Numbered from the stretch's first letter, positions 17,061-61,100 are shown. The stretch is DNA of 64,000 bases from Nemertoderma westbladi (GCA_032718475.1 JAUCBJ010001066.1:1-64000); one strand, 5' to 3'. Program-made: numbers and translations. Notes: generated by a model from the letters alone, not told the origin.

Positions 17061-17892
17061 TTCAGCATTTAACACGCTGCAATCTGTGCAGTGCACTGTC
17101 AGACTGTACGTGTACAGCCGGTAGATTAATGTTATGCTAAATGGTATTCTACGGGTAAATATAATTAGGTAGGTGCATTGGTACAGTCGTATATAGTTAT
17201 ATATTATTCCAACCTAAACAATAAACTGATAAACGAGAGTTAACAGCACTGGCACATATGGCACTATGGCAGTTTAATTCTTGAAGTACACACGTGGTAA
17301 TTAACTGTAGAATAATGCAGATAGGGGGGGGGGGGGGGGGGGGGGGAACTGGACGCAATAAAAATGCATCCCTCTCCAGGGGAAATTAGACGCAAATAAC
17401 AGCTGATTATTCTCAAAAATAAAACTGTAACCTGTTCTATTGTGCTTAGTTTATTGTTTTGGTTAAAATAACGTGCCACTGTAACCTGCTCCTTTCCCTA
17501 AATTGAGAATTTAACATTGATGCGGGGTATTTATTCGCCAAGGCGGCTTTTGCGTTGGGACACTGTCTCGAATGACGATAAAAAGACCGCTGAAATATAA
17601 ACTATAAAATAAAAAAAAACATTTATTTTGAAATAAACCATAGTTTTATTCTAGTAAAACTTCGAACTTGAAGTTCAAATCAAATTCATAATTGCATCAA
17701 TAACGGCAGTAGGCCTAGGAGAACCCTACAGCAGTGCACTGTTGCTGTAGCAAGCACACTGGAACATTGAAATAAATAATGTTTGCCTATTATATACAAA
17801 TTGATAAAATATTTTCTCCACAAAATACATATGTTTTTTTATCAACCATTAAATAAAATACGATTCGAAAAAAATTCGAATATATAAGAAAA

Positions 17893-20336
17893 CTATATAA
17901 GAAACCCCACTTCCCACCGATGCACAGACATCACGGTCAGCTTAGAGAGCAATCCTATCAGGAAGCACCAGAAAATGCATCTATCAATGGAGTACTCCAA
18001 AGAAAATGGTGAATGTAACCCAGAACCTGTTTTTCGAAGTAGTAGGACTCTAAACCTTAACCGCTTTGAGCAGGAACTTAATGAAGACATCGACGCAGCG
18101 ACAGCACACCTAACAGAAACAATAAACTCTGCGTCATGCCCCCCCAATAAAGTCTCAGACCACCACAATAAACCATGGTTCGTGGTTCGATGACGAGTGC
18201 AGGACTTGCAAGCACCAACTACTTGAGATGATGGCCAACCGCCAAAACTCGCCTGCTAACAATGACCTGTACTGGGCGAATAGGAAGAAATATAAAGCCT
18301 TACTGAAAAACAAGAAAATAGCGTATGAGGAAGAAATGCTACTCGAAAACTTAAAACAGGCGGAGATCAAACCTTGGATGATCTTCAAAGAGGGGAAACT
18401 GGCGAAATCAATCCCCATAGAACCAGCAACTCTGAGGACCCACTTCGACAATTTATTGGGTGTAAGACTGGACCCTCCCGGAAGCAGCACCCCACCTTCG
18501 CCATCTGAACTGGAGAAATGTGTTGAAGAGTGGTACAATGAGCCAATCAGAGAACAAGAGGTAAGCGATGCTATACAGAACTCTGCATCAAAGAAAGCCT
18601 GCGGCCCAGATGGAATATTTTACGAACATTTAAAAGCTGCAGGTCCCCTCCTAATTACAATTATAACTCTCCTTTTCAACTTCTGCCTAAAAATGGGCGC
18701 AATCCCACTGTCATAGACATGTAGCATCATCAAGGCTATATACAAGGGGAAAGGGAGCCTGATGGACCCAAATAACTATAGAGGTATCGCTCTTATCTGT
18801 GTTTTCCTAAAATTATTAACCTCCATACTAAACAAACGGGTTCAACGGAACATATCCCACCTGTTCCCAGATGAGCAATATGGATTTATACCAGGGAGAT
18901 CAAATATGCAAGCAATAAGGAAACTCGTCTCAGATATTAACAAAGCCCTTCACTCAAAAGAAGACCGTGTAATGTATGTAGCCTTTGTTGATTTTAAAAA
19001 GGCATTCGACCTAGTGAACCGAGCCTTGCTCCTTGGCAAGATATATAACGATTTCGAAATAAAGGGGGAATTATTCGGCTTCATTAAGGCATTATTAACA
19101 AATACAATAAAAATATCCGACGGTTTCAGCCTATCAAAACCGATCACACAGTTGCGAGGAATTCTGCAAGGAGACTCATTCTCAGCAACTTGCTTCAAAA
19201 TTTTTATTACCAGCCTCGCAACTGCACTCCGTGCAATATCGAGAGCGATACGATTCATATTCTTTGCGGACGATCTAGCCTTTTATTCTTCGAATCCACA
19301 AGTTATCCAACGCGGTCTTGATGTCCTAGAAGAATGGTGTATAAATAATTCAATGGAAGTGAACCTCTCTAAAACAAAAATAATGAAGTTCCGTAAAGGT
19401 AGCCGGCTGTGTATTAACGATAAATTCTACTACGGGGGAAAAGAAGTTCTCATCTGCAATGAATACGAATATCTTGGCATAACCTTGCAACCGACCCTCA
19501 CTTTTACCAAACATGTTAACAAAAGAAAGCGGAAATCTTATGCAGCGATTGGTTGTCTTCGAAATTTAAACAGACTGTCAATATGTACCGCAATGAAGAT
19601 CTTCGCAATGAAAATACAGCCAATGGTATCACATGGTCTTGTAGAGATCGGTTGCTTCTTTACAGTTGCACACATGAAAGAACTGGATAAAATCAAATCA
19701 AAGTTTATTAAAAGGGTGCTCTCCCTACCATCCAACTCATCGACAACCATGGCCATTAAAGCTATAGGAGAAAAAACATTCATTGAAGATCTCCTTATCG
19801 TAAACCCCACGCTATTCAACCCTACAGCATTAGACCAATATCGCTCTTACCGAACCGAACGCACAGAAAACTTCAACCGGCAGGGTTACACAAGGGGCCC
19901 AGCCTTCACAACTTCGAGTTGGAAATCCTCACAGCAGAGAAACCGGCACACTGTCACCAGGGCAACCGCCCATGGGTTTCACTACCTCATCTGCTTGACC
20001 TGCACCCCTTTCCACGAGCTGTCATCGCAATGTATTTGTAAATATTGTAAGAACTCAGCCGTGGACAGATACCACGCTCTCAACTGCGATTGCTGCCCCT
20101 CTCTGACAGAACTGGCCAGCCACCCATATCACTAAAAGAAAATTGGTTCACCACAGCCATGAGACTTTGATATTCGTACTGAATCGTATTTCATTCCAAC
20201 TAATTGTAAAATTTTTTAATTAATTATTAACTTATTGCTCCACCTGTATATAGCTATTTTTAACAATTTTAAAAGAATAAACCTTTTACCCCGTTTAGGG
20301 GTGCACCTTGTTAAAAAAAAAAAAAAAAAAAAAAAA
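17893..20336 (+). mobile_element. 5'-truncated, inactivated non-LTR retrotransposon (LINE) with RT remnant and poly(A) tail
   Basis: Fragments 17975-18193, 18228-18716 and 18762-20135 join into one ORF2. KPWF|DDEC is broken by a 7-bp TGGTTCG duplication, and TAG at 18714 replaces an expected W. RT motifs KKACGPDGI, DPNNYRGIAL, FVDFKKAFD, LQGDSFS and FADD, plus a C-terminal Cys/His knuckle. AATAAA at 20276 and A24 at 20313-20336. The 5' boundary is approximate. Confidence 0.9.
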
Positions 20337-20349: not shown

Positions 20350-20576
20350 TCGTATTTCGTATCGTATCTTGGATTTTTCGTATCGTATGGTATTTTCCCA
20401 AAATTACATTCGTATCGTATGGCATTTTCCCAAAATTACATTCGTATCGTATCGTATAGCGAAAAATTGGTTCGTATCGTATCGTATTTTCGTATCGTAT
20501 CGTATCGTATCGTATCGTATCGTATCGTATCGTATCGTATCGTATCGTATCGTATCGAATCGTATCGTATCGTATC
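20350..20576. repeat. (ATCGT)n pentanucleotide microsatellite with degenerate 5' part
   Basis: Near-perfect CGTAT run at 20491-20575; CGTATCGTAT-containing ~32-bp units upstream. Confidence 0.9.
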
Positions 20577-23270: not shown

Positions 23271-23609
23271 ATGGGAGAGGTAACTACCGATAATTTAAAA
23301 TTCCTTCCGTTCTCTAGTTCAATAGAACCGGGGTTTTGGTACAATCTGTCTCAAAAGAAACTCAAAGAATTCAAACTGGACGCGAGTCCTAAACCTATCC
23401 TCGGGCGGTTCAGTATAGGGGAGGGCCACGGCTACCAACCAACTCTCTATGTCGAGTACGACGCATTGAACCCCAAAGAGAGACTCGGTAGTTGTAGCTA
23501 CTCAGTTAACGGGCAGCTTATAAATACCAACACCATCGACGACTTTAAGGCTCTAGACAAAAAACGTATCTTAGATGAGGCCGCTTCAAATATATGGGAA
23601 GTTGTCCGG
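23271..23609 (+). CDS. ATG7: ATG7 (autophagy E1-like enzyme) coding exon 1
   Basis: LKFLPFSSSIEPGFWYNLSQKKLKEFKLD...GQLINTNTIDDFKALDKK matches the ATG7 N-terminal domain. Donor CGG|GTAAGT, phase 0. Confidence 0.9.
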
Positions 23610-24210
23610 GTAAGTTCTGAAGTTTGGCTATTGGTACAGTATTTTAGTTGATTACCTGTTACCGTACTGCTGTAATACTGTAATAGTTTGTTAGGTTTAA
23701 CTTTTGAATTTTTAAATTTGTTTTGATATTGTTACCGGTAGTGGTTTGGTTAATGATAATGCGTCTCAAGTTTATTTACGGCTAGTTATTTGTGGGTTAA
23801 AATAGCGGAGTGGATTGACATCGCATTGAGATTGCAAGTGGTTGAACTGCAACTGGTTACCTTAGCTCTACTAATTGATGAAGCCTGATAGGCAGAAACA
23901 TATGTATAGCCCTGGTTCCCCCGGTGACGTGCTTTTCTCATTTTTTCCATTTTCGAACAAAACCATAATATTACAAGAGAGGGTGCAGGGGTAGCAGGTA
24001 GGCCTATTGCTGTATAGTAAATACATAGTGTGGCAGTTTGGATGTACCTAAATACGTCAACAACTTTATTGGAAATAGTTTAAGCCTATCTCAATTGATA
24101 TTTTGTTTAATTATACACCAAGGAACCTGTGGTCTGTCTGTAGGACACTGCTCAGACCCGCTAATTATCATGCCAAGTCGATTGTTATTTTGACTATATT
24201 ATTCCCTTAG

Positions 24211-24812
24211 GACGGGTCTGCTTTATCCAATCCTAGCCTTCTAAACCAATTGATACTCATAACATTCGCCGACCTAAAGAAATACCACTTCTACTACTGG
24301 TTCTGCTTCCCAGGACTGTGTCTAACTCCTATACGTTTAATCTCTAAAACAACGTTGCGCCAATCATTGTCCCCTGATCAATCATCTACCCTAGTCCGAC
24401 TCTATGACTCATATCGTTCCACCAATAGCAGCGGTTTATTCAGTCTTCGTTTAGACGGAGACACTTTGAACTTATCCGGGTTTCATGAGGACGATATGAA
24501 TAGCGACGTTTGGATTGGATGTCCGGATCCCTCTGTTTCCCCTGACTACCCCGGTTGGCCAGTGAGGAATCTAATTGCGTTGCTAGGTTACCAGATACCC
24601 AAGGGCCAATCGCGTCGCTTTGCGTTGCTGTGTTACCGTTGTCTACGCACCAGTTCGGGCAACGATGTCGGACACAGTTTGCTGCTTAACATAGAGGTTG
24701 ATGGTTACCATGGCGATACCGTGGTCCCGAAATCGGTCGGCTGGGAGAAAAATAGAAAAGGGAAAACCGCGGCCCAGATGGTCAACCTCAGTGCGTCCAT
24801 GGATCCCTTACG
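24211..24812 (+). CDS. ATG7: ATG7 coding exon 2
   Basis: Acceptor CCCTTAG|GAC. Encodes DGSALSNPSLLNQLILITFADLKKYHFYYWF...PGWPVRN...VGWEKN...MVNLSASMDPL. Donor CG|GTTAGT, phase 2. Confidence 0.92.
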
Positions 24813-27800
24813 GTTAGTAGTGCGTCCATGGACTCCCCGCGGTTAGTAGTGCGTCCATGGACTCCCCGCGGTTAGTAGTGCGTCCATGGACTCCCCGCGG
24901 TTAGTAGTGCGTCCATGGACCCCCCGCGGTTAGTAGTGCGTCCATGGACCCCCCGCGGTTAGTAGTGCGTCCATTGACCCCCCGCGGTTAGTAGTGCGTC
25001 CATGGACCCCCCGCGGTTAGTAGTGCGTCCATGGACCCCCCGCGGTTAGTAGTGCGTCCATGGACCCCCGCGGTTAGTAGTGCGTCCATGGACCCCGCGC
25101 GGTTAGTAGTGCGTCCATGGACCCCCGCGGTTAGTAGTGCGTCCATGGACCCCCGCGGTTAGTAGTGCGTCCATGGACCCCCCGCGGTTAGTAGTGCGTC
25201 CATGGACCCCCCGCGGATAGTAGTGCGTCCATGGACTCCCCGCGGTTAGTAGTGCGCCCATGGACCCCCGCGGTTAGTAGTGCGTCCATGGACCCCCGCG
25301 GTTAGTAGTGCGTCCATGGACCCCCGCGGTTAGTAGTGCGTCCATGGACCCCCCGCGGTTAGTAGTGCGTCCATGGACCCCCCGCGGTTAGTAGTGCGTG
25401 CATGGACCCCCCGCGGTTAGTAGTGCGTCCATGGACTCCCCGCGGTTAGTAGTGCGTCCATGGACCCCCCGCGGTTAGTAGTGCGTGCATGGACCCCCCG
25501 CGGTTAGTAGTGCGTCCATGGACTCCCCGCGGTTAGTAGTGCGCCCATGGACCCCCGCGGTTAGTAGTGCGTCCATGGACTCCCCGCGGTTAGTAGTGCG
25601 TCCATGGACCCCCCGCGGTTAGTAGTGCGTCCATGGACTCCCCGCGGTTAGTAGTGCGTCCATGGACCCCCGCGGTTAGTAGTGCGTCCATGGACCCCGC
25701 GCGGTTAGTAGTGCGTCCATGGACCCCCGCGGTTAGTAGTGCGTCCATGGACCCCCGCGGTTAGTAGTGCGTCCATGGACCCCCCGCGGTTAGTAGTGCG
25801 TCCATGGACCCCCCGCGGTTAGTAGTGCGTCCATGGACTCCCCGCGGTTAGTAGTGCGCCCATGGACCCCCGCGGTTAGTAGTGCGTCCATGGACCCCCC
25901 GCGGTTAGTAGTGCGTCCATGGACCCCCGCGGTTAGTAGTGCGTCCATGGACCCCCCGCGGTTAGTAGTGCGTGCATGGACCCCCCGCGGTTAGTAGTGC
26001 GTCCATGGACTCCCCGCGGTTAGTAGTGCGTCCATGGACCCCCCGCGGTTAGTAGTGCGTCCATGGACCCCCCGCGGTTAGTAGTGCGTCCATGGACCCC
26101 CCGCGGTTAGTAGTGCGTCCATGGACCCCCGCGGTTAGTAGTGCTTCCATGGACCCCCCGCGGTTAGTAGTGCGTCCATGGACCCCCCGCGGTTAGTAGT
26201 GCGTCCATGGACTCCCCGCGGTTAGTAGTGCGTCCATGGACTCCCCGCGGTTAGTAGTGCGTCCATGGACCCCCCGCGGTTAGTAGTGCGTCCATGGACC
26301 CCCGCGGTTAGTAGTGCGTCCATGGACTCCCCGCGGTTAGTAGTGCGTCCATGGACTCCCCGCGGTTAGTAGTGCGTCCATGGATCCCTTGCGGTTAGTA
26401 GTGCGTCCATGGACTCCCCGCGGTTAGTAGTGCGTCCATGGACTCCCCGCGGTTAGTAGTGCGTCCATGGACTACCCGCGGTTAGTAGTGCGTCCATGGA
26501 CCCCCCGCGGTTAGTAGTGCGTCCATGGACTCCCCGCGGTTAGTAGTGCGTCCATGGACTCCCCGCGGTTAGTAGTGCGTCCATGGACTCCCCGCGGTTA
26601 GTAGTGCGTCCATGGACCCCCCGCGGTTAGTAGTGCGTCCATGGACCCCCGCGGTTAGTAGTGCGTCCATGGACTCCCCGCGGTTAGTAGTGCGTCCATG
26701 GACTCCCCGCGGTTAGTAGTGCGTCCATGGATCCCTTGCGGTTAGTAGTGCGTCCATGGACTCCCCGCGGTTAGTAGTGCGTCCATGGACTCCCCGCGGT
26801 TAGTAGTGCGTCCATGGACTCCCCGCGGTTAGTAGTGCGTCCATGGACCCCCCGCGGTTAGTAGTGCGTCCATGGACTCCCCGCGGTTAGTAGTGCGTCC
26901 ATGGACCCCCGCGGTTAGTAGTGCGTCCATGGACTCCCCGCGGCTAGTAGTGCGTCCATGGACTCCCCGCGGTTAGTAGTGCGTCCATGGACTCCCCGCG
27001 GTTAGTAGTGCGTCCATGGACTCCCCGCGGTTAGTAGTGCGTCCATGGCCCCCCGCGGTTAGTAGTGCGTCCATGGACTCCCCGCGGTTAGTAGTGCGTC
27101 CATGGATCCCTTGCGGTTAGTAGTGCGTCCATGGACTCCCCGCGGTTAGTAGTGCGTCCATGGACTCCCCGCGGTTAGTAGTGCGTCCATGGACTCCCCG
27201 CGGTTAGTAGTGCGTCCATGGACCCCCCGCGGTTAGTAGTGCGTCCATGGACTCCCCGCGGTTAGTAGTGCGTCCATGGACCCCCGCGGTTAGTAGTGCG
27301 TCCATGGACTCCCCGCGGCTAGTAGTGCGTCCATGGACTCCCCGCGGTTAGTAGTGCGTCCATGGACTCCCCGCGGTTAGTAGTGCGTCCATGGACTCCC
27401 CGCGGTTAGTAGTGCGTCCATGGCCCCCCGCGGTTAGTAGTGCGTCCATGGACTCCCCGCGGTTAGTAGTGCGTCCATGGACCCCCGCGGTTAGTAGTGC
27501 GTCCATGGACTCCCCGCGGTTAGTAGTGCGTCCATGGACTCCCCGCGGTTAGTAGTGCGTCCATGGACTCCCCGCGGTTAGTAGTGCGTCCATGGACTCC
27601 CCGCGGTTAGTAGTGCGTCCATGGACTCCCCGCGGTTAGTAGTGCGTCCATGGACTCCCCGCGGTTAGTAGTGCGTCCATGGACTCCCCGCGGTTAGTAG
27701 TGCGTCCATGGACCCCCGCGGTTAGTAGTGCGTCCATGGACTCCCCGCGGTTAGTAGTGCGTCCATGGACTCCCCGCGGTTAGTAGTGCGTCCATGGACT

Positions 27801-28911
27801 CCCCGCGGTTAGTAGTGCGTCCATGGACTCCCCGCGGTTAGTAGTGCGTCCATGGACTCCCCGCGGTTAGTAGTGCGTCCATGGACTCCCCGCGGTTAGT
27901 AGTGCGTCCATGGACTCCCCGCGGTTAGTAGTGCGTCCATGGACTCCCCGCGGTTAGTAGTGCGTCCATGGACCCCCGTGGTTAGTAGTGCGTCCATGGA
28001 CTCCCCGCGGTTAGTAGTGCGTCCATGGACTCCCCGCGGTTAGTAGTGCGTCCATGGACCCCCGCGGTTAGTAGTGCGTCCATGGACTCCCCGCGGTTAG
28101 TAGTGCGTCCATGGACTCCCCGCGGTTAGTAGTGCGTCCATGGACTCCCCGCGGTTAGTAGTGCGTCCATGGACTCCCCGCGGTTAGTAGTGCGTCCATG
28201 GACTCCCCGCGGTTAGTAGTGCGTCCATGGTCTCCCCGCGGTTAGTAGTGCGTCCATGGACTCCCCGCGGTTAGTAGTGCGTCCATGGACTCCCCGCGGT
28301 TAGTAGTGCGTCCATGGACTCCCCGCGGTTAGTAGTGCGTCCATGGACTCCCCGCGGTTAGTAGTGCGTCCATGGACTCCCCGCGGTTAGTAGTGCGTCC
28401 ATGGACCCCCGCGGTTAATAGTGCGTCCATGGACTCCCCGCGGTTAGTAGTGCGTCCATGGACTCCCCGCGGTTAGTAGTGCGTCCATGGACTCCCCGCG
28501 GTTAGTAGTGCGTCCATGGACCCCCCGCGGTTAGTAGTGCGTCCATGGACTCCCCGCGGTTAGTAGTGCGTCCATGGACCCCCCGCGGTTAGTAGTGCGT
28601 CCATGGGCCCCCCGCGGTTAGTAGTGCGTCCATGGACTCCCCGCGGTTAGTAGTGCGTCCATGGACTCCCCGCGGTTAGTAGTGCGTCCATGGACTCCCC
28701 GCGGTTAGTAGTGCGTCCATGGACCCCCCGCGGTTAGTAGTGCGTCCATGGACTCCCCGCGGTTAGTAGTGCGTCCATGGACCCCCCGCGGTTAGTAGTG
28801 CGTCCATGGACTCCCCGCGGTTAGTAGTGCGTCCATGGACCTCCCGCGGTTAGTAGTGCGTCCATGGACCCCCCGCGGTTAGTAGTGCGTCTATGGACCC
28901 CCGCGGTTAGT
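24790..28911 (+). repeat. 29-bp (28-bp variants) tandem array, ~143 copies, made from the ATG7 exon 2/intron 2 junction
   Basis: Unit AGTGCGTCCATGGACTCCCCGCG|GTTAGT. The first copy (24790-24818, AGTGCGTCCATGGATCCCTTACG|GTTAGT) is the last 23 coding nt plus intron +1 to +6. Confidence 0.97.
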
Positions 28912-28996
28912 TATGTATTTCTATAGCAGCGATTAGATGTTTATTTATCTGCCCCCTTAGCCTTTTTAATCCCCCCCCCCTCCCCCGCACCCACAG

Positions 28997-29202
28997 ATTG
29001 GCTGATTCCTCAGTGGATCTGAACCTCGAATTAATGAGATGGAGGATTCTACCTCAACTCCAATTGGACGTTGTAAAGGAGGCACGGTGTTTGTTGCTAG
29101 GCGCCGGTACACTTGGTTGTGCAGTCTCCCGTTGTCTCATTGGTTGGGGCGTAAAGAATATTACTTTAATAGATAATTCCCGCGTATCTTATTCCAACCC
29201 AG
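28997..29202 (+). CDS. ATG7: ATG7 coding exon 3
   Basis: Acceptor CCACAG|A completes CGA (Arg). Encodes [16 protein letters not shown]...[11 protein letters not shown] (nucleotide-binding GxGxxG)...VSYSNP. Donor CAG|GTAAAG, phase 1. Confidence 0.93.
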
Positions 29203-30328: not shown

Positions 30329-31480
30329 TGTTTGCGCTTTTAAGACCTTTGACAGTTTAACCTGCCAAATTAGGATGTCTTTTAGATGATATATATTCTT
30401 TAGCTTATGACGAGTATTTGATACACTACATTAGCCGAAGCCAGTCTATGCGCAATCATTCACCCGCTGGATATACCCGGGAGACTGAATTCGGAACTTA
30501 ATGATTGATGGTGTAAGCCTACCGTATTATTCGACTGATCGTAATATATAATCTCTGACAAATATTATTCACTTTCGGGAAATATTAACAGTTCCTTTAG
30601 GACGTGGCGCTCTAAATATGTAAACAGAGTTATGACTTAAACTAGACACAACGAAAAGGCTATAGATTCACGTATATGGCGCATTCTTTAGGAGATGCTT
30701 TGTTATCAGTTACAATCATACACAATGCTGCACAATACTGCACACTAATCTGCCGACCTTCACTAAATTTGGTCACGTATAAAGAGAGCAACATACAATT
30801 TATGTCGGGCATATGAAATAGCATTAGATTCACTTCAAACCACTTAACATAGGTCGCAATCGTTTATCTGTAACCGGTCTCTCTAACCTTTAGTATATCA
30901 AGAAGGTATTGATCAGTATTCCGATATAATATTTCATCAACCAATATAATGAATAACCGACAGTAAAAGCAGTAATATTAGTAATTTATGGATAGATATG
31001 GTATGTTAACTCGATTTGCATTGGTATGGTTAGATAACAGATATACGTTCTATAATTAAGCCTACTAATGTAAAGCTAAAGAATGCTGATATACGGAGGT
31101 GCCAAAAGCCGGTGTTCTTAGGCTCTGGGCAAAAACATAACACTGAACTACTGAGTTTCTGCATCCACCTCCAAAACAGAGACAAAAAACGCTCTGATTG
31201 GTCAACCGAACAACGAGAGAACAAAGAAACAAAGAAATGTCGACGTGGCAATATCAGCTGTTAGCCGTCGTCATGGTAGCGACACTGTTTTCAAGAGTAT
31301 CTAGCTTATCGCGTCACGAGATTACGGATTATGTCCTCTAAAGTACAAATACAGAAGAAATGGCTTTTATGTCCTCTAAAACACCAGTACAGCAAGGACA
31401 CGGCCTTTTTATGCCTGGTAAACCAACCACAGAGTACTTTACAGGGAAAATAACCGGCTAATTATGCAAAAGCTTTTACA
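30329..31480 (-). repeat. 3' LTR (1152 bp)
   Basis: TGTTTGCGCTTTTAAGACC...GCAAAAGCTTTTACA. By eye it differs from the other LTR by one 13-bp indel and about six substitutions. Confidence 0.93.
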
Positions 31481-34400
31481 CCGCTCCCAGAAAATGGGAT
31501 TTAAGTCTATAAAATATAACAAATCACAGTTTCTAAAATATAAAGATACTCTAAACAGTTAGTCTTTCTTACGCAGACGGCGTTTACGCAGTTTTTTGAG
31601 GCTAGCAAGAGTCCTTTTCTCTTTGGGGCGAGCCACTTTACTAGGAGGGCTATCAATCCTGGGTGAAGGGTGCAATATGATTGCATCAGAAAGTGTAGGA
31701 TTATGGTCGGGGTATCCGCCGTTTCGATATGCTTCTCCTCGAGCTGATTTTCCTCCGCTCGTAGCTGGATACGTTCATCCAAAAACTCTCGCAGAGAATG
31801 GGTTGTCTAAGTTTGATATCTTCTTAGAGATTCTGGATTTCACAATCGAACTGAGATAAAGACAATTCGTTTATCGCTTGGACTTACTGTTACAACTTAC
31901 GTTTATCTAAGCAAACGCCGGTTTCCTTTCTGATCTTTGTAGAATAGCGTTTAACTCGTTTGGTACAACGTTCTCCGCCACTTTGGTGACAGGTTATATC
32001 GTGTTAAGCCGGGACGATGGTAAGGGTTAAACGGCGACATTAAATGTCCGCGTCCCAATCCGGTTAGGTAGAATGGGCTAATATCTAGGAAGCCCACAAC
32101 TGGGGTGCCACCAACTAATTGTTCAGGTAACACTAGATCTTTGAGCAGTGAGTACAGCTCGGGAGGATCCGTCATACTAATAGGATCAAGAGTCTGAAGT
32201 CTCACTAGGGAATGAGGAGTTCTGATCGAGTATTCCGAAACTCTGATCATTGGTTTATTTAAGGATCGTCTGAGTCGAACGAGCGTAGGTGATACATCGA
32301 ACAAGTTTCGCCCGAAACTCCCGTAAGTATAGCGAGTAAAACCGTGTTTAAAGCAACGTCTCCGCGGATGTTTATGTCTTTCCGACTGTTGGTTGGGTCT
32401 TGGGCATTCATCGCAATAATACCAAAAACGCACGTCTTGTAGGGGAAACGCGAGTGATCTCTCTCCAGCCTACAATATTCCTCCATCCGTTCGAAGCTAT
32501 CCGGTACAACAGGTAGCGATCGATCGGCGGTAAGATACATCATAGTGGAATAGAGCCGTTCGAGTTCTACCATGCGGTCATGATGTATACCTTGAGGACA
32601 TCGAGTTTCTAGATTCTGCTGACTGGCAATATCGAGATAGGTCTCTCTCAAGAATTCCAGGTATTTGGTGGAGTCGCTGCATTTATCCGGCTCTTCGACA
32701 TCTGCACCTTCGAGTCGGTTTCGAATAGAATTTTCGTGTTCAAGTCTCAGTTTATCGTTCCGCTTCCGCTGGGTATGATATTTAAATAAACCACTTCCCT
32801 TTGGTGTCTACATCGTTCGTATCGTGTAGGTCGATAGGATGACCAGTAGTTAAGAAGTCCATATACGCACCATTACGATGCGTATAGCGAGCGGCGAATT
32901 TTCTACAGTCCAACCCACGCGCAAGTTGCTCCCGGGACATTGGCGGTTAGATATAACGACCATCGTCCTCCGTAGTAGTTGGACCAGCGTCGCCGCGTAT
33001 CAAGCTATCAACAAACGCCCGTAAAGGTAGAGTATATCGCTCCCTGATACCAAGATCATCATCTATCAACTCAATCATATCTGCTATATAAGTTTATCCA
33101 TATTATAATGAGTTTATATTTAGGCGAGCGGGCGTCGCTGCCTACCCCTCTCTGCCCCCGGACAGTGCGAGATCCTCAGCGCTGGTGTACTTTCGCCGAT
33201 GTGCCTATCGCCAACGTCGTAGCTGCACAACGACTACAACAACCAGCACGAGCCACTCCACCGTCCGTCCCAAAGGCTTAGATATACTTCAGGTTCTTAC
33301 TGGAGAGTTAGGGTTACTTTCACAATTGCGACTCGCTACTGTAAACACACCTTAGTAGTAACATTCACCTACAAACGCACAAATTCCACGTAACAGTCAC
33401 AAATGGTACACATTCTATCACACATTCGGGTCATTTGTCCGTTAGTCAAGTGCCTTCCAGAATGTCACGTTGTTATTATGTATCCTTGGATACTAGCGGT
33501 GCGCTATTTATTCCATATGCTATTCAATGAGCAAGCTTTTTATTGTTCTATTAACTCGCTTCTAATTCTAGCGTGGTTGTTGCTATGGTGACATTATGGA
33601 AAGCTAGCGGTAGAATTAGGGTAATTCCCATGCATACAGATCTGGGATGCTATTTAATAGTAAGTCTTTAATGGTCAATATCATCTTTATATATGATTTT
33701 ATGAATTTTATCGGCTATTGACTCTATATTGGAGATTCTCACACTCTAACACACTTAATAGGATGAATCTCCGCTCCCGTGATCTATTAATTAATGGGAT
33801 TTTGGGAATGTTATAAATTGCATAAAATTGCAATTTATTAAATTCATTAAAGTATGAATTTAAATTTATTCCCTGAAATTTTATTATTTGATAGTTAAAT
33901 TGACACAATTTGATTCCAGAGCATATCTGGGGACATATGATCCTTGATTCTATGAATTTGTCTTTTTAAGAGTATCGGTAAATGCTACGATATCTTAATC
34001 GACTAGAATGTTAAAGGATCTAAAATTTGACAGATTTTGTAAATATTAATAATTAATATTTAGGATGGGCACCAGTTTATTCCAGAACTTGTCTGGGGAC
34101 GTTAACCACTGATTCTAGAATTTTGTCTTTCAAGTATATCGGTGGGTGCCGCGATATCTTAATCGACTAGAATTGCAGATGGTCAAATGGTTTAACAGAT
34201 TTATTTTGCGTTATACGCTACTGTTAAAGGGACATCACACTACTATATGTATTATTTAATATACGGTATGAGAGCAATATCGCACGAGGCAATGTCAGTG
34301 AGAAGAGGCAAGTCGTTTCCAAGGTCTACCCAGAGCTTGGTTTAGCCGAGACACGAGGATCTGAACTTTGCATTCCTAATACTCTGCCTACCAATAATAC

Positions 34401-34721
34401 TTGAATATAGTAGTGGCTTTATTGTACTTTAATAAGTACGGACATTTCATCTTACTGTAGTTACGTATTCGTAATGTAATACGGGCAGCAAGGAAAGAGA
34501 AAAAGAATTATTTCTCGCCGTCGCACTAAATATAATATACAAGTAATTAAGTAATAAACACTAATATATTGCACTGATCTACTAAATAATCACTAAATAA
34601 CATTCTACTAAATAAAATTAAAGAAAACGATTATAATAAAATTACATAATAATACATACATCATATAAAATAATAAAAATAAATATAAAATAATATAGTC
34701 ACACACCCACTCCGTATGTTG

Positions 34722-36407
34722 TTACGTTATGGAGTCCCTAGATATTTGTTGGATTAGGGAGGTGGTCGTGGGAAGAGTATCTTGCCTTCCATAGTTTCCG
34801 GACAGTTTTCGGTCTCTTTCCGGTAAACATAAACGACCAGCTGGGCGATTGAGTGGTTGTGTTACTTTCTCCGCTCCCTTGGCCTGTCTAATCTTCGCCG
34901 GGTTAAGATGGGGAGGCCATTCATCTTCTTTACTTAGGAAGTCGGGTTCACCTAACCAGTCTGGAGTATCTGTAAGTTCTTGAGGAGTTGCTCCTCTGGA
35001 GGCGATGTCGGCTAGATTGATCGTCTCGGGGCAATGTCTCCATTGATCTTCATTGGAGTTGATGTCGTCATGACCTGAGGAGTATGGTGTTCCCTCAGTT
35101 GGGTCGTCAACTTCACTGCTCTCCACTTCCTGTTCACTTAATTGATATACCTGTTCTTTTGGTAATCTTTCCATAAGAGTTCTACGAGAAGGGCCAGTAA
35201 AGTACCAACCTACTCTAGTTCTTCCCGCATAAACTTGTAGAGGTTGCGGTTGAGCAGGCCGTTTCTCCAATGTCTCGAGCGCTTCATGCGCATTTTGACC
35301 GATGAGTATTTGGACTCCAGGATAATCGGTGTTGAATCTAGGTATTTCAAACTGCTGGGTGAAATCATCCTCATCCCAATTATAAAGGTCTGCTTGAGTA
35401 GTAGCGAAGTTCTTTATAGCCACCATTTTCACTGACCTTATGCTATGTTCTCCTAGTTCGTCCTGGGGGGTGGACAACGCACCTACATAATAATCCGCTG
35501 TTACTGTAGATTTCCAAACCTGCATAATCCCTGACATGTTTAGCTTAGTTCGGAACTTGGGTTGTCCAGCGAATATGTCTTCGGCTAGCTCTTTGTCGAT
35601 GAATGTTCCTGTACTACTGGAGTCAAGGAGGGCGTTCACTACATAACTCCTTTTTGGTCCGTGGACCCTTACCTGTACCACAGGAAATTCTCTAATCCCT
35701 ACATTGGAAGTTGGCGCTTTCCAAAATGGTGGTTGATCAGAAGTAGTTAGAGTGAGGTCACTTTCTGTATCTTTTTCATAAGTAAGTGCTCGATACACTG
35801 CGGTATTTGTTAGGTAACAGGATTCGTTTTCGTCGGAGAATTCGTCCGTATAGAATCCTTCCATCTCAGAATATTGGTCAGTGTCGTTCACATCACTGAA
35901 TTGGACATGTAGTTCGGACTCACTTACCTGACTCGGGCTGTTTCGTTCGAATTCCGTGTGCAACAAGATATGATGTTTTGCGCCGCACTTTGCACACCTT
36001 ACGTCGGAGTAACAGGTTCGCCGTTGGTGTCCTCGTCTGAGGCAATTATAACACAACCGCTTATCCCACATGACTTCACGTCTGTCCTTTAGTGATTTCC
36101 TCAGGAATTCATCACACGCACTTAAACGGTGGGGCCCGTCGCACAGCACACATTTGGGCTTGATGTTACTTACTTTAACATGTGCTGTGTGGTGCACGTT
36201 CGTTCTTTCCTCGGGCTTTCTCACCTGAATTCTCTTGGGAGACGTAGGAGGAGTTTTTCTTACCTGTTCTCTCCTGTCATTGGTTCGAGACTTGAATTTA
36301 CTTACCTGGTCTGTAGGCGTTTTATTGACATAATAAGATCTTTCAGTGTCTTTCCCGCTATCCTCTCCTTGAGAAGTCTGGCTTTCGCCGTCGTCTGTAT
36401 AACACAC
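34722..36407 (-). CDS. BEL/Pao gag zinc knuckles plus aspartic protease, fused to a short RNase H C-terminal remnant (RT and integrase deleted)
   Basis: CVLCDGPHRLSAC, CYNCLRRGHQRRTC and CAKCGAKHHILLH form the BEL triple knuckle. ALLDSSSTGTFI is the protease site. WRHCPETINLADIASRG..P..L is the end of the Pao RNase H region. No YxDD RT or integrase motifs. Confidence 0.85.
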   Translation of the reverse strand: MCYTDDGESQTSQGEDSGKDTERSYYVNKTPTDQVSKFKSRTNDRREQVRKTPPTSPKRIQVRKPEERTNVHHTAHVKVSNIKPKCVLCDGPHRLSACDEFLRKSLKDRREVMWDKRLCYNCLRRGHQRRTCYSDVRCAKCGAKHHILLHTEFERNSPSQVSESELHVQFSDVNDTDQYSEMEGFYTDEFSDENESCYLTNTAVYRALTYEKDTESDLTLTTSDQPPFWKAPTSNVGIREFPVVQVRVHGPKRSYVVNALLDSSSTGTFIDKELAEDIFAGQPKFRTKLNMSGIMQVWKSTVTADYYVGALSTPQDELGEHSIRSVKMVAIKNFATTQADLYNWDEDDFTQQFEIPRFNTDYPGVQILIGQNAHEALETLEKRPAQPQPLQVYAGRTRVGWYFTGPSRRTLMERLPKEQVYQLSEQEVESSEVDDPTEGTPYSSGHDDINSNEDQWRHCPETINLADIASRGATPQELTDTPDWLGEPDFLSKEDEWPPHLNPAKIRQAKGAEKVTQPLNRPAGRLCLPERDRKLSGNYGRQDTLPTTTSLIQQISRDSIT

Positions 36408-36442
36408 TGGTGTTATCCTTCTCCTAGAAACGGGTTTCTCAC

Positions 36443-39382: not shown

Positions 39383-39535
39383 GTTTGTTTACACAGTTGA
39401 ATGCCTACTGCTATATTACAGTCTAAGCAAGTCTAGTAATTCAGCATTAACTGCTAACCTAGTAATTAATTACCGATACTGCTACTCAGTGTAGCGTGAT
39501 ATATATATAATATTAGAATACCGGTATGCTTATAG

Positions 39536-40431
39536 TCCACGAAGCTAAGGAAAATCAACTACTTTCGCTAAGAAAGATTTTCCTTAGCTGAGATGGTCTA
39601 TTCATAGTGGGCTATTTTACTTGTGTGAGGCAGATTTGGGGTTTTTTGATAGGCGAAAAAACTAGCCTTTAAAAGTACCCTGAAATTTTGCATGTATATA
39701 CTACTCGGCGAGGCGCATCTTTTGGGCCGGGTCTCATATCCAGGAAAAATCTGGTTTCCATGGCAACGGACTTCAAAAAAAGTCTATGTATTTCAAGTCA
39801 ATATTTATAACTCTATTTGTAGGAAAACTATAATAGATTTAAACTTGGGGTTTTGCAACACAACTATAAGGTCCATAGCAGATCCGATTGAGGCTAAATA
39901 GAAAATCCAGTTACCTTGGCAACCGAGATAAACAGATGTTAAAATTTATAAAATGTTAATTTGAGGCCTAAGGGCAAGGTGTTATGACTTGGGACCAACC
40001 CCTACCCCCACTATATAACTTATTCTGCATCCGAATTACATTGTTCTATTTTTCAGTTACCATGACAACAGCCGAAAACAGATGTTTTTATACAAAAATT
40101 ATTCATTTGGACATAGACTTCGCGATAAAATTTTACAAAACTGGGTATGTGTTATCTGCACCACTAGTTGGAACTTTTAGTGAAACTTAAATCATTCCAG
40201 AAATTTAGTTACCATGGTAACTGTAGTTTATTAAACTCTATATCATTCAAGTCTATATTGATAACTCTATTTCTAGCAAAACTGTAATATATATAAACTT
40301 GGGGTTTTGTAACTCATCTATAATTTCCATATCCATCCAAGCCGTTTGAGGTTAATTAGAAAGTACAGTTACCATAGCAACAAGACTAAACAGATGTTAC
40401 TATTTATAAAATGATAATTTGAAGCACAAGT
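39536..40431 (+). mobile_element. Helitron-like non-autonomous element, copy 1 (5' 896 bp only, tandem duplicate of copy 2)
   Basis: Starts TCCACGAAGCTAAGGAAAATC; the sequence repeats with period 896 at 40432. Confidence 0.7.
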
Positions 40432-50983: not shown

Positions 50984-51150
50984 TCCGCCAGTGCCTTTAC
51001 GAATTCAACGATTGCCTGGAAGGCGGCGCTAAGAAGGCTGAATGTGCGGCTTCCCATCTCAAACGAATATTTCCTGGAGTCAACGCTGTTGGTATAGAAC
51101 TCAGTGTACCAATGCCGGCCCACACACTGGCTGACTCAATGGTAGAACAG
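50984..51150 (+). CDS. ATG7: ATG7 coding exon 4 (not in the ORF track)
   Basis: Acceptor TTTTTATTTGCAG|TC completes GTC (Val). Encodes VRQCLYEFNDCLEGGAKKAECAASHLKRIFPGVNAVGIELSVPMPAHTLADSMVEQ, continuing SNP|VRQ of ATG7. Donor CAG|GTAGGG, phase 0. Confidence 0.92.
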
Positions 51151-52912
51151 GTAGGGACTCAGTGTACCAATGCCGACCCACACACTGGCTGACTCAATGG
51201 TAGAACAGGTAGGGACTCAGTGTACCAATGCCGGCCCACACACTGGCTGACTCAATGGTAGAACAGGTAGGGAGGGACTCAGTGTACCAATGCCGGCCCA
51301 CACACTGGCTGACTCAATGGTAGAACAGGTGGGGACTCAGTGTACCAATCCCGGCCCACACACTGGCTGACTCAATGGTAGAACAGGTAGGGACTCAGTG
51401 TACCAATGCCGGCCCACACACTGGCTGACTCAATGGTAGAACAGGTAGGGACTCAGTGTACCAATGCCGGCCCACACACTGGCTGACTTAATGGTAGAAC
51501 AGGTAGGGACTCAGTGTACCAATGCCGGCCCACACACTGGCTGACTCAATTGTAGAACAGGTAGGGACTCAGTGTACCAATGCCGGCCCACACACTGGCT
51601 GACGCAATGGTAGAACAGGTAGGGACTCAGTGTACCAATGCCGACCCACACACTGGCTGACTCAATTGTAGAACAGGTGGGGACTCAGTGTACCAATCCC
51701 GGCCCACACACTGGCTGACGCAATGGTAGAACAGGTAGGGACTCAGTGTACCAGTGCCGGCCCACACACTGGCTGACGCAATGGTAGAACAGGTAGGGAC
51801 TCAGTGTACCAATGCCGGCCCACACACTGGCTGACTCAATGGTAGAACAGGTAGGGACTCAGTGTACCAATGCCGACCCACACACTGGCTGACTCAATTG
51901 TAGAACAGGTGGGGACTCAGTGTACCAATCCCGGCCCACACACTGGCTGACGCAATGGTAGAACAGGTAGGGACTCAGTGTACCAATGCCGGCCCACACA
52001 CTGGCTGACGCAATGGTAGAACAGGTAGGGACTCAGTGTACCAATGCCGGCCCACACACTGGCTGACTCAATGGTAGAACAGGTAGGGACTCAGTGTACC
52101 AATGCCGGCCCACACACTGGCTGACTCAATTGTAGAACAGGTGGGGACTCAGTGTACCAATCCCGGCCCACACACTGGCTGACTCAATGGTAGAACAGGT
52201 AGGGACTCAGTGTACCAATCCCGGCCCACACACTGGCTGACTCAATGGTAGAACAGGTTGGGGGTCAGTGTACCAATGCCGGCCCACACACTGGCTGACT
52301 CAATGGTAGGAGAGGTTGGGAATCAGTGTACCAATGCCGGCCCACACACTGGCTGACTCAATGGTAGAACAGGTAGGGACTCAGTGTACCAATGCCGGCC
52401 CACACACTGGCTGACTCAATGGTAGAACAGGTAGGGACTCAGTGTACCAATGCCGGCCCACACACTGGCTGACTCAATGGTAGAACAGGTAGGGACTCAG
52501 TGTACCAATGCCGACCCACACACTGGCTGACTCAATGGTAGAACAGGTAGGGACTCAGTGTACCAATGCCGGCCCACACACTGGCTGACTCAATGGTAGA
52601 ACAGGTAGGGACTCAGTGTACCAATGCCGGCCCACACACTGGCTGACTCAATGGTAGAACAGGTAGGGACTCAGTGTACCAATGCCGGCCCACACACTGG
52701 CTGACTCAATGGTAGAACAGGTAGGGACTCAGTGTACCAATGCCGGCCCACACACTGGCTGACTCAATGGTAGAACAGGTAGGTAGGGACTCAGTGTACC
52801 AATGCCGGCCCACACACTGGCTGACTCAATGGTAGAACAGGTAGGGACTCAGTGTACCAATGCCGGCCCACACACTGGCTGACTCAATGGTAGAACAGGT
52901 AGGAACTCAGTG
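51099..52912 (+). repeat. 58-bp tandem array, 31 copies, made from the ATG7 exon 4/intron 4 junction
   Basis: Unit ACTCAGTGTACCAATGCCGGCCCACACACTGGCTGACTCAATGGTAGAACAG|GTAGGG, which is 52 coding nt plus intron +1 to +6. Confidence 0.97.
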
Positions 52913-52946
52913 AGTTGTGTGACTCAGTAAATTGTTTGTTTTATAG

Positions 52947-53168
52947 GTGAAGCGTGATGTGCGCACTCTAGAGGAGTTAATAAGAACTCATGATTGCATA
53001 TTCTTATTAATGGATTCCAGAGAGAGCCGTTGGTTACCGACTATGTTGGCGACAGCCAATAGGAAACTAGTGATTAACGCGGCCTTGGGATTCGATACTT
53101 ATATGGTGATGCGTCATGGTGTCCCCGCTGATAATCAACTAGAAGGGGACGATAACATTATTAACCAG
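52947..53168 (+). CDS. ATG7: ATG7 coding exon 5
   Basis: Acceptor TTTTATAG|GTG. Encodes [31 protein letters not shown]...[17 protein letters not shown]. Donor CAG|GTAAAG, phase 0. Confidence 0.93.
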
Positions 53169-57043: not shown

Positions 57044-57226
57044 GGCCTTGCTGCGGATAATAAACGACTGGGCTGTTATTTCTGTAACGATGTCGTCGCA
57101 CCTGGCGACTCTACCAGGGATCGAACTCTCGACCAACAATGCACCGTCAGCCGACCTGGTCTATCTATGCTCACTGCCGCGCTCGCTGTAGAACTCTTTG
57201 TCTCCGTATTGCAGCACCCTCTACAG
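57044..57226 (+). CDS. ATG7: ATG7 coding exon 6 with the catalytic cysteine (not in the ORF track)
   Basis: Acceptor TTTTCTTCAG|GGC. Encodes [31 protein letters not shown]...[16 protein letters not shown]. Ends at a non-canonical donor CAG|GCAAGT, phase 0. Confidence 0.92.
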
Positions 57227-57494
57227 GCAAGTTTACGAACTCTGTATTAGAAGCTCGATGAAAATTGATAAACTACATACAGAAAGGCTATTTAACTAAA
57301 TTTCCGCAATAATAATAATTAATTTTAAACCAAATTTAAATTCTAAAATAAATTCTAACCCTAACCTTATATAGCTATTATTTATATACACACACACTGC
57401 TAAGGCTAACTACAGTACTTTATCTAAATCCTGCTTAATGGCTACAGTAGTTCACTAACTATTTCCAGTTTGGTTCCCAGATTTGACTCCCCTT

Positions 57495-57901
57495 TGTTTC
57501 CTTAGGGTTTAGCACCCGCTATATCTTCAGCCAATGACACCCATCTAATGGTTGAACCCTGTTGTTTCCTTAGGGTTTGGCACCCGCTATATCTTCAGCC
57601 AATGACACCCATCTAATGGTTGAACCCTGTTGTTTCCTTAGGGTTTGGCACCCGCTATATCTTCAGCCAATGACACCCATCTAATGGTTGAACCCTGTTG
57701 TTTCCTTAGGGTTTGGCACCCGCTTTATCTTCAGCCAATGACACCCATCTAATGGTTGAACCCTGTTGTTTCCTTAGGGTTTAGCACCCGCTATATCTTC
57801 AGCCAATGACACCCATCTAATGGTTGAACCCTGTTGTTTCCTTAGGGTTTGGCACCCGCTATATCTTCAGCCAATGACACCCATCTAATGGTTGAACCCT
57901 G
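57495..57901 (+). repeat. 68-bp tandem array, 6 copies, made from the ATG7 intron 6/exon 7 junction
   Basis: Unit TGTTTCCTTAG|GGTTTGGCACCCGCTATATCTTCAGCCAATGACACCCATCTAATGGTTGAACCCTGT. AG acceptors end at 57505, 57573, 57641, 57709, 57777 and 57845. Confidence 0.96.
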
Positions 57902-58181
57902 CACCCCATTGGGCGTCATTCCTCATTCAATTCGCGGATTCCTCTCCCGATTCCAAACAATTCTTCCTCTGAGTTTCGCCTTCTCAGCCTGCGTGGGCTG
58001 CAGCGCTCCCGTGATTGACAGCTACAACACGGACGGGTTTGACTTCCTCATTAAGGTCTTCAATGATTCTGACTTTCTGGAACAACTCACCGGATTGGCT
58101 GCTATGAAGGCGGACACCCTGAGTGATGACCTTATTGCTCTCAGTGACTCTGAGGATGATGACCCACCTAATATGTTATAG
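57846..58181 (+). CDS. ATG7: ATG7 coding exon 7 (last)
   Basis: GLAPAISS...PLGVIPHSIRGFLSRF...AFSACVGCS...FLIKVFNDSDFLEQLTGL matches the ATG7 C-terminus; stop TAG at 58179-58181. The spliced CDS totals 2055 nt (684 aa). Confidence 0.9.
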   Translation, partial: GLAPAISSANDTHLMVEPCTPLGVIPHSIRGFLSRFQTILPLSFAFSACVGCSAPVIDSYNTDGFDFLIKVFNDSDFLEQLTGLAAMKADTLSDDLIALSDSEDDDPPNML

Positions 58182-61100
58182 TTATAAAGAACACTTTGAA
58201 CCAAATAACTGGGTGCTATCTAGTGTAATTTAGTTAAAATTGTTATTAAAGTTTGATTTTATTTCATTTCTATGTTTTACCTGAGGTAATTTAATTGTTT
58301 CCTATGACAACATATCGCTTACAGTAAGTTATAAATAAATTATCAAACTAACGTTATATTCATCAACAACCTTTTCAGATTTTTTCACAATAATTAATTA
58401 ATTGTGCTGTAATTTCTCCTACTATTGGTCAGTTTATCCCACCCATCGTTATCCTCTCTAAATGTGTTTTTTTTCCAATTCACCAATGTTCATGTAATAG
58501 ATATAATAATATGTATGAAGCACATATCCATCAAATAATCACATAATCCAATAGCGAAGTATTGTTAGTTGTTGCTGCAACAACTTACTATACTTCGCTA
58601 TTGGATGAACAGCTGTCTACACGTGTCGCACTAGGCTGCCGCTCCAGATGTGTTGTGAATAATGTAATGGCCAATTGCTTCTCGTTCAGTAGATATAATA
58701 TTCCATCTTCTGCAGGAATGAATAGAAGGTGAATTACGGTAAAAACAGCGGTAAAATAAAGTGGTCGGTGAACGTGGGAAGCACGAAACAACGGGGGCAC
58801 CCAGCTCTCTCTTGGCTGTTACCAATAAGGAAAGGAGGGCGTCACACTAACTCCAAAGGGTCAACACTCGACAAACAACCCTTTATTTACTCCCCATTGT
58901 GCCACTGGGTTTGCCTAAGCAATAATGTATAAAGTGTCTTGCTTAATAGGGACAAAGGAGTACGAAATTTCAACAGGCTTTAGTTGGATTTGGAGCTGCT
59001 GGACGTTGAACTTAAACCATAGAAGAACCCATCATGGTGGGGCAACGTTTTATACCATTATGTTGGAAGGCTAGTTGGGTGAACCAAAAATTAATATGTG
59101 TTTTCCTTTATCTCCCCACATTGTATGTATTTTAAGGTAATAGTTCTGGGGAACCTAAAATATTGAGTTCCCTTCGTATTGTTTACAGAAATGGCTTGTC
59201 TTTAATTGGATATATGATATGAGGATAAGATACTGGTTAGCTGATGCCATATTGAGCTCACAGGGTGCGACTGCATTAATGCGTATCAAATAATGGATTT
59301 TCAGGATTTTTAGCATTGCCGTACAAAAGGCCAATGGCATAAGTGTATTAGTTGAAACTCTATCACGATGTATTATTTCCCAGGAAATATTGAATATTAT
59401 ATCATTCCCTAAGGGTGTATGTAGATCATCCGTTTACCAATGGTGATGAGAGGTGATTGATGGAAGGATAGTGAAATACAGTATGTTGTCAAATATCATT
59501 TACGAGACTTTATGGGACTTCGTACAAACATTATTCTTCCAACAGTATGATGATATGCTCGTAAAAGATACGGCATAAGTCATAATACATATAAACATAT
59601 TTTTTCTTTAAATTGTGTAACCCCGTCCGTCATATTTTACAATAATATCTTGGCACTAAAAAATTCTCAAATTTATTGTGTTTTAATCATCCGATCCATT
59701 TAATATCTCATTAATATGACAAATTTTGATTGATTGTTAAATTACATGCGACTTCTGGGTGGCAATTTCATTCAAGAAACCCGATTCAGGTTTGGGTGCT
59801 ACACTCCGAGTAGGTAGCTCCGTGATTAAACATTAACAACAAGATAATGAAAATGTGTTGTGTGACCAATCACAGGCCAGAAACACCCAGAGAGGGGGGG
59901 GGGGGGGGGGGGGAGGGGGGCTACCAAATAAACATATCTAACTTTATGCCGTATCCGTATATGTAGGCTACATACGCGTATGTGCCTAAATAAGTATATT
60001 CCTGCATTTCCGTCCTGCGAATACTTCTTTTCAAATTTCCCTCCTTATTATGGGATAAAGTCTAAACAAAGTTTGACGGGTAGAGGTCGCAATTCCACTT
60101 CCAAAAATAGTGATTTAAATCCGATTTAAGTGATGTTGGAGCGGTTTTACAACTTTGTCGATGTAGGATAAATATTCCAAGTTGAGGAATATTTATTTTC
60201 TTTAAATGATTGCGCCATCGCGTTTTTCATGATTCATCTCGCCAAGTAACCAACTAATTATCCTTTACCTACACTAATCCATCGCGGATCATGCAATAAT
60301 CCATTGGGTCAAACTTCCTTAATTAGCTTCTCAGGAGGGAAGTGATTAGTTTTGTTTTGGTAATTGGCCTATTTGTGCCATCACAATTACGGATATGCTG
60401 TCAGTGGTACAGTACCATTTGTTTAGCAATCTCAATAATCTGTATATATTGTATTGCAGTTTGGGAATACTTTTTGTGTGGTAATAAAATAATTAACACT
60501 GGTCTGGAGACGACACAGGATACTTAGTATAAGGCAGCGGCCATTTTTTTCAAATATTATTATTTATTATGTAGTTATAATGATTATATAATGTAGGAGG
60601 AAGAAGACACGTTCGTGGGGCCTTCGCGCAGCACGAGGCTCAGTTATTAGACACAAATTAAGATTGAACGATATTATCACAAAAACCGTATTTAAGAAAT
60701 TTACCGCTAATTAATCAAAGAGAGGTGGAAGTCTCTTTTTAAACTGTTAAATTTTTCCTTTGGTTTGGTAATTCTGAAGCTATACTGGTTTTCAAGGTCG
60801 CTGATCACGATACAACTCGTTAAAAATCATTCGTGGTAAAGCAATTATCATTTATGGTGCTTTCTGGTGGGACGTAAAATACAAGTAGCATAAAATTTCA
60901 AACGACAAAAAGCGAATTTGGTTGGATAATACGATATATTTGAGTTTTATAATCGTGATCAGCATCCTAAGTAACCTCTAAATACCGCAATTAAATGAAT
61001 TTTAGTGAATTATAAATTCTTTTGAAAATGAAAGGGGCCACAGCACAACAACTAACATAGCCATGTAAATGGTTTTTGCTTTGTTGGGTAGCCCATTAAA

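What the first reader, a model, noticed from the sequence alone, without database searches (positions are those of the whole stretch)
24790..28911. About 143 decoy 5' splice sites in intron 2, with the unit ending exactly at intron +6
Seen: boundaries are unambiguous (CTC|AGTGCG at the start, GTTAGT|TATG at the end), so the unit carries exactly GTTAGT, the U1-pairing +1 to +6 positions. The array fills ~98% of the 4184-nt intron (24813-28996). Using donor 2 (24842) shifts the frame, and any later donor includes TAG at 24844-24846. The exonic copy (GGATCCCTTACG) differs from the bulk (GGACTCCCCGCG or GGACCCCCCGCG), so intronic copies are homogenised separately from the coding copy. Each unit is CpG-rich with CCATGG and CCGCGG palindromes in an AT-rich region.
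Basis: seen in the sequence. Interest (0 to 1): 0.7.

Follow-up and report, generated by a model that had tools for sequence, protein, structure and literature searches.

The report
Splice-donor "mirage" minisatellite in ATG7
A 29-base piece covering an exon end and its splice signal stands 143 times in a row in an animal's autophagy gene ATG7, yet the assembled transcripts use the first copy, so it is likely a harmless, unusually long example of the "mirage" repeats known from lancelets and human genes, and two more junctions of the same gene carry such repeats.

Summary
The array is real: 143 units (118 of 29 bp, 25 of 28 bp) at 24790-28911, made of the last 23 nt of ATG7 exon 2 plus intron +1..+6, filling 98% of intron 2. 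Spliced contigs from two studies join the first donor to exon 3. One 1,666-nt contig fits a transcript with a single unit at every array (781 of 781 nt). The expressed allele reads GCG|GT, the same as the decoys, so position rather than sequence picks the donor. This is a 'mirage' minisatellite (lancelet Adh3 and globins; human F7 IVS7, CBS), and this scan has met it before in many other genomes. A special meaning of '+6' is not supported. Excluding the index array, that clustering has P about 0.001 under a crude uniform null. Rare decoy use cannot be seen in contigs. Verdict: new member of a known kind; interest 0.3.

The parts
23271..23609 (+). ATG7 coding exon 1 (from ATG)
   Evidence: Pfam ATG7_N; joint skipping 601 nt GT..AG in runs X1 and X5
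24211..24812 (+). ATG7 exon 2; its last 23 nt are the exonic part of the repeat unit
   Evidence: Pfam ATG7_N
24790..28911 (+). 29-bp splice-donor minisatellite, 143 units; first unit holds the true donor at 24813
28906..28996 (+). Last donor copy plus 85 nt of unique intron with pyrimidine tract and AG: the inferred 91-nt intron before expansion
   Evidence: sequence; ancestry inferred
28997..29202 (+). ATG7 exon 3
   Evidence: Pfam ThiF; loose-end letters of X1 and X5 match its start
50984..51150 (+). ATG7 exon 4
51099..52912 (+). Second donor array: 58 bp x 31; most copies repeat the true donor CAG|GTAGGG; only the first keeps the frame; 48-nt inferred ancestral intron at 52899-52946
52947..53168 (+). 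ATG7 exon 5
57044..57226 (+). ATG7 exon 6, GC-AG donor
   Evidence: X5 loose end matches its 3' end
57490..57901 (+). Acceptor array: 68 bp x 6.1; only the last acceptor (exon start 57846) gives the full protein
57846..58524 (+). ATG7 exon 7 (stop ends 58181) and 3' UTR to the poly(A) site

Best explanation
The array is a splice-donor minisatellite ('mirage') in ATG7 intron 2 whose first copy is the donor found in assembled transcripts, and it likely arose as a chance 29-bp duplication across the exon end, likely grew by ordinary repeat turnover, and is likely tolerated because the spliceosome takes the most upstream of identical donors. Shown: unit anatomy, reading frames, first-donor junction, repeated multi-unit blocks. 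Inferred: the duplication inflated a 91-nt intron to 4.2 kb. The donor is chosen by position (first transcribed, nearest the upstream acceptor: exon definition or 5'-to-3' scanning). Any leak to later donors would give stop-containing RNA that decay would remove. Purely exonic duplications of this length would shift the frame and be purged, which is why surviving exon-derived arrays straddle a junction with the coding copy on the exon side.
For: 684-aa ORF without internal stop, 49-50% identical over nearly the full length to 4 of 4 ATG7 proteins tested. Runs X1 and X5 (two studies, spliced contigs) go from exon 2 through one unit into exon 3, and neither has a contig running into the intron. 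The 1,666-nt X5 contig leaves exactly 781 nt between its two mapped parts, as predicted for one unit at each array. The expressed donor is GCG|GTTAGT, as in 137 of 142 later copies. Predicted accessibility of +1..+6 is 0.67 for donor 1 and 0.31-0.98 for the next 21 copies, so structure does not single it out. A 13-unit block is repeated (units 67-79 and 80-92), and 0 of 500 shuffles reach this. Same layout and outcome in F7 (PMC1557585) and lancelet mirages (PMC3087553, PMC3902484).
Against: Only assembled contigs were available; they drop rare isoforms, and decay would hide decoy products, so exclusive first-donor choice is not shown. The tool lists X1 and X5 as 'DNA?'; I read them as RNA from the GT..AG joint and the poly(A) tail. 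Whether the animals behind X5 carry the arrays is unknown. For sample S1 the DNA run X2 breaks at the array edge and depth rises from 19 to 65, which suggests an array but gives no copy number. The assembled length of 143 units was not checked with long reads. CBS and 6-16 do use two pseudo-sites (PMC1557585, Introduction). Three arrays at 12 splice sites is more than uniform chance plus survival explains.
Confidence: 0.8

Rival explanations
1. A mutational process aims tandem duplication or amplification at splice junctions in this animal (for example breaks, R-loops or recombination concentrated at exon edges), so mirages are a genome-wide habit and not only lucky survivors. This can hold together with the best explanation.
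For: 3 of 15 tandem arrays in the window (period 10 or more, about 2.5 copies or more) span one of 12 splice sites; expected 0.07. Without the index array, 2 seen against 0.058 expected, P about 0.0014. Lancelet authors suspect a general phenomenon with unclear mechanism (PMC3087553).
Against: One gene in one window, chosen after the fact. The uniform null ignores that GC-rich exon sequence may seed or be detected as arrays more readily. The three joins differ (no microhomology, 10 bp, about 4 bp plus one base), which argues against one dedicated machine. No genome was held to test it.
Confidence: 0.3
2. The decoys are a regulatory device: a ladder of poison donors, or a sink for U1 snRNP, that sets ATG7 output through nonsense-mediated decay according to copy number.
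For: Every later donor gives a premature stop; 139 of 142 keep GT. Human ABCA7 intron-18 VNTR expansion is reported to give read-through transcripts with premature stops (PMC13747324, passages). The repeat RNA folds strongly (z -3.9, 0 of 200 shuffles).
Against: No contig with decoy use in 2 of 2 spliced runs. Stops are expected from any 29-bp unit. Strong folding is expected from repeated palindromes. The acceptor array looks absent in one DNA run, which fits dispensability.
Confidence: 0.07
3. The array created intron 2 (intron gain by tandem duplication, Rogers model).
For: 98% of the intron is repeat; mirages are proposed as a route to new introns (PMC3087553).
Against: The acceptor, pyrimidine tract and last 85 nt are unique sequence, and the unit itself contains intron +1..+6, so an intron existed before the duplication.
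Confidence: 0.03
4. The array, or most of its length, is an assembly artefact.
For: No long reads were seen, and contig depth gives no copy number.
Against: 20 unit types with polarity and higher-order blocks. Two DNA runs break at the array edge with raised depth: 19 to 65 in X2, 17 to 198 in X4.
Confidence: 0.04

Closest known systems
Amphioxus 'mirage' minisatellites (Adh3, globins BflGb6/BflGb9, troponin C, PGBD5). PMC3087553: abstract end and five further passages read; PMC3902484: one passage read; Canestro et al. 2002 not held, known only through these citing papers
   Same: Tandem units spanning an exon-intron boundary, on donor or acceptor side; splice signals kept; normal mRNA made; edge unit left out of homogenisation; copy number differs between haplotypes.
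   Different: 143 copies against 3-6 given for BflGb6; three arrays in one ATG7 gene; host is another animal with no close relative in the protein searches (best identities about 40-58%).
Human F7 IVS7 37-bp VNTR (PMC1557585: abstract, Introduction and Discussion read whole)
   Same: First unit holds the true donor; identical pseudo-donors follow; only the most upstream one is seen in mRNA.
   Different: F7 unit is 4 exonic + 33 intronic bases with 5-9 copies; here 23 exonic + 6 intronic with 143. In F7 the pseudo-sites were shown functional by mutation; not testable here.
Human CBS IVS13, 6-16 intron 2, LMNB2 and PDGF intron 4 minisatellites (as summarised in the Introduction of PMC1557585)
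   Same: Junction-spanning donor arrays of 10-25 copies.
   Different: CBS and 6-16 also use two pseudo-sites; no such use is visible here at contig level.
Human ABCA7 intron-18 VNTR (PMC13747324, passages read)
   Same: About 25-bp unit next to a donor, 11-330 copies, C-rich core.
   Different: Described as adjacent to the donor, not as containing it; length is linked to mis-splicing and disease, which is untested here.

Membership tests
Mirage minisatellite | Tandem unit spans an exon-intron boundary of the host gene | tested here: met
   Unit = last 23 nt of exon 2 + intron +1..+6; junction confirmed by spliced contigs
Mirage minisatellite | Many copies keep the splice signal | tested here: met
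   139 of 142 extra copies keep GT
Mirage minisatellite | Regular mRNA is still made | tested here: met
   X1 and X5 contigs; 781 of 781 nt. Contig level only
Mirage minisatellite | Concerted evolution inside the cluster with the boundary unit left out | tested here: met
   Bulk differs from coding copy; 13-unit block repeated, 0 of 500 shuffles
Mirage minisatellite | Length differs between haplotypes | tested here: inconclusive
   29-mer: contigs give no copy number. 68-mer: X3 bridges with one unit, X4 holds unit-junction contigs, window has six; collapse in assembly not excluded
Mirage minisatellite | Somatic instability (reported for Adh3) | not testable with these tools
   Needs single-molecule reads from one animal
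F7-type donor VNTR | Only the most upstream donor is used | tested here: inconclusive
   First donor is the only one seen in 2 of 2 spliced runs, but contigs drop rare forms
F7-type donor VNTR | Pseudo-donors work when the first is inactivated | not testable with these tools
   Needs a minigene
Intron gain by tandem duplication (Rogers model) | Both donor and acceptor come from the duplicated unit | tested here: not met
   Acceptor and last 85 nt are unique
Dispersed satellite or mobile element | Copies of the unit elsewhere | tested here: inconclusive
   143 of 143 window matches lie in the array; no genome to search; the unit encodes conserved ATG7 residues

The most novel reading that the evidence does not exclude
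In this animal, exon edges are preferred targets of tandem amplification, so that small introns are routinely inflated by copies of their own junctions (3 of 6 introns here). The original 91-nt and 48-nt introns survive intact behind the arrays yet lose to a donor 2-4 kb further upstream, and an acceptor array that needs the last of six AGs segregates as presence/absence. This would be a junction-directed mutational process and a natural allelic series for splice-site choice.
Probability: 0.15. Interest if true: 0.7.

Novelty: new member of a known kind. Interest (0 to 1): 0.3.

Why it matters
As it stands it is a long, clean example of a described oddity, and it shows that first-donor choice yields normal mRNA against about 140 equal competitors in an invertebrate. 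It would matter more if the clustering at splice sites holds genome-wide: the origin of mirages is called unclear in PMC3087553, and a gene with two donor arrays and one apparently polymorphic acceptor array would let exon definition, intron definition and scanning be compared on natural alleles. In practice such arrays can break short-read assemblies and gene models.

Tried and rejected
No genome is held, so the genome-wide count could not be made. Homologue searches with the neighbouring RNase H2A and ATG7 exon 2 found no close relative; the host is an animal and its phylum was not determined. No raw reads were offered, so isoform shares and copy number are open. X1 does not reach the exon 7 acceptor (starts at 57972). 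Rejected: donor strength as the discriminator (6 of 9 for both versions); structural masking of decoys; a methylation signature (CpG o/e equal to exons; 1 of 143 units shows a CpG-to-TpG change); use of an internal exon-type unit to explain GCG in the RNA (the contigs align without gaps to 24809, and X4's DNA contig ends at 24809 as a two-allele site at 24810 would cause; inferred). Canestro et al. 2002 could not be read. Paper searches showed no genome-wide survey of such arrays and nothing on this gene; the library lacks most subscription journals, no search named ATG7, and no supplements were read (Additional files 4-6 of PMC3087553 may bear on the comparison). PMC4974935, PMC3629103 and PMC9225289 were seen as listings only. 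No earlier notes exist for this genome or sequence.

Full report
1. The observation. Tandem Repeats Finder reports an array at 24790-28911, period 29, 143.0 copies. It splits into 143 units of 20 types; the commonest has 73 copies. The period extends no base beyond either edge. A 16-base core has 143 matches in the window, all in the array, against 0.15 by chance. GC is 62-65% against about 35-42% around it, but CpG observed/expected (1.03) is that of the neighbouring exons.

2. The host gene. Pfam finds ATG7_N in exons 1-2 and ThiF in exons 3-5 (the exon 4 and 5 pieces score below the curated cut-off). Seven exons (23271-23609, 24211-24812, 28997-29202, 50984-51150, 52947-53168, 57044-57226, 57846-58181) give 684 aa without an internal stop, 49-50% identical over nearly the full length to lancelet, oyster, mouse and jellyfish ATG7 (4 of 4 tested). 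The unit is the last 23 nt of exon 2 plus intron +1..+6. Of 143 donor positions one gives the full protein, one gives 331 aa and 141 give 324 aa. Behind the last copy lie 85 nt of unique intron with the acceptor, so one unit's donor plus this tail makes a 91-nt intron, which I infer to be the state before expansion.

3. Which donor is used. Five runs of the same species hold exon 2. Two, X1 and X5 from different studies, skip intron 1 (601 nt, GT..AG), so I treat them as RNA although the tool marks them 'DNA?'. Both leave the window at 24809 and continue GCG then the start of exon 3; neither has a contig entering the intron. The X5 contig of 1,666 nt maps with letters 1481-1666 on exon 2 and letters 23-701 on exon 7 up to a poly(A) tail at 58524, with the end of exon 6 as its loose end; I take the two records as one contig from equal length, depth and strand. 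The letters between number 781, exactly what single units at all arrays predict. The expressed allele has G where the window has A at 24810, a synonymous change, so its donor equals that of 137 of 142 later copies. Sequence therefore cannot be what marks the true donor, and predicted RNA structure does not either. Position remains. Limits: contigs hide rare forms, decay would remove decoy products, and the array genotype of the X5 animals is unknown.

4. Two more arrays in the same gene. A 58-bp x 31 array (51099-52912) repeats the exon 4 donor; of 32 donor-like positions only the first keeps the frame. Its join lies in a 10-bp sequence shared by the exon and the start of the inferred 48-nt ancestral intron, the mark expected of slippage. 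A 68-bp x 6 array (57490-57901) repeats the exon 7 acceptor; only the last of six gives the full protein, and the copies gain an exon-derived branch-point-like CTAAT 26 nt upstream. DNA run X3 bridges unique intron to exon 7 through one unit, while X4 holds unit-junction contigs: most simply a presence/absence or length polymorphism, though collapse in assembly is not excluded. Use of the last acceptor on array-bearing alleles is inferred from the reading frame, not shown. Of 15 arrays in the window (period 10 or more, about 2.5 copies or more; shorter periods, two-copy repeats and overlapping rows left out of the 30 rows), 3 span one of 12 splice sites; without the index array P is about 0.0014 under a uniform null. 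This is one gene and a crude null.

5. How it most likely works. Inferred: a short duplication across the junction, tolerated because the coding copy sits on the exon side, was amplified by unequal exchange or slippage. The repeated 13-unit block (0 of 500 shuffles) and the gradient of the commonest core (8 of 35, 15 of 35, 26 of 35, 26 of 38 units by quarter) fit that. Three internal units match the expressed exon end and are probably relics of the founding unit. The spliceosome takes the first donor, as shown by mutation for F7 (PMC1557585). Notably the intact short intron at the far end does not supply the mRNA seen, which favours exon definition or first-come choice over intron definition, with the decay caveat above.

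6. Comparison with what is known. PMC3087553 describes tandem duplications of exon-intron boundaries on either side as 'mirages' in lancelet Adh3 and globins, with regular splicing, length instability, exclusion of boundary units and an unclear origin; PMC3902484 adds troponin C and PGBD5. PMC1557585 lists F7, CBS, 6-16, LMNB2 and PDGF. The array meets the four defining features that could be tested; length variation is inconclusive for the 29-mer. It is not intron gain, since the acceptor is unique. The term and the lancelet paper came to me through earlier notes of this scan, which list many such arrays in other genomes, some of nearly 300 copies and some genomes with several; these are unchecked AI notes, and two report the opposite choice (last donor, first acceptor).

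7. Verdict. Observation confirmed; interpretation partly supported; the '+6' point has no support. New member of a known kind, interest 0.3. The bolder reading, junction-directed amplification with a natural allelic series, is not excluded (probability 0.15, interest 0.7) and needs the genome-wide count and raw reads.

Noticed in passing
window 51099-52912 and 57490-57901: Second donor array (58 bp x 31) and an acceptor array (68 bp x 6) in the same ATG7 gene; the acceptor array appears as a single unit in DNA run X3 and as an array in X4.
   Followed up: yes
window 30329-49325: 19-kb LTR retroelement in ATG7 intron 3, minus strand: 1.15-kb terminal repeats 98.4% alike with TG..CA ends and a 5-bp target duplication; a 981-aa ORF has DUF1759, suggesting a BEL/Pao-type element (label recalled); 39.5-46.7 kb inside it is a nested array of 0.4-1.8-kb repeats.
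   Followed up: partly
window 53470-54393 (-): Intronless calcineurin-like phosphoesterase ORF (CPPED1-like, name recalled) nested antisense in ATG7 intron 5.
   Followed up: no
window 57227-57232: ATG7 intron 6 has a GC donor; the X5 contig joins the exon 6 end to exon 7.
   Followed up: yes
window 6030-8348 (+) and 16161-17213 (-): hnRNP U-like (HeH, SPRY, AAA_33) and RNase H2A open frames without introns in the coding part, suggesting an intron-poor animal genome.
   Followed up: no
window 18126-20330 (+): LINE-like reverse-transcriptase element with an internal stop and a 3' A-run.
   Followed up: no
window 12713-13670 and 20472-20576: Intergenic 21-bp x 45 minisatellite and a TCGTA x 21 microsatellite, not at any splice site found.
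   Followed up: no
window 23904-23976 and 58805-58860: Short high-copy dispersed repeats seen as depth spikes in the DNA runs.
   Followed up: no
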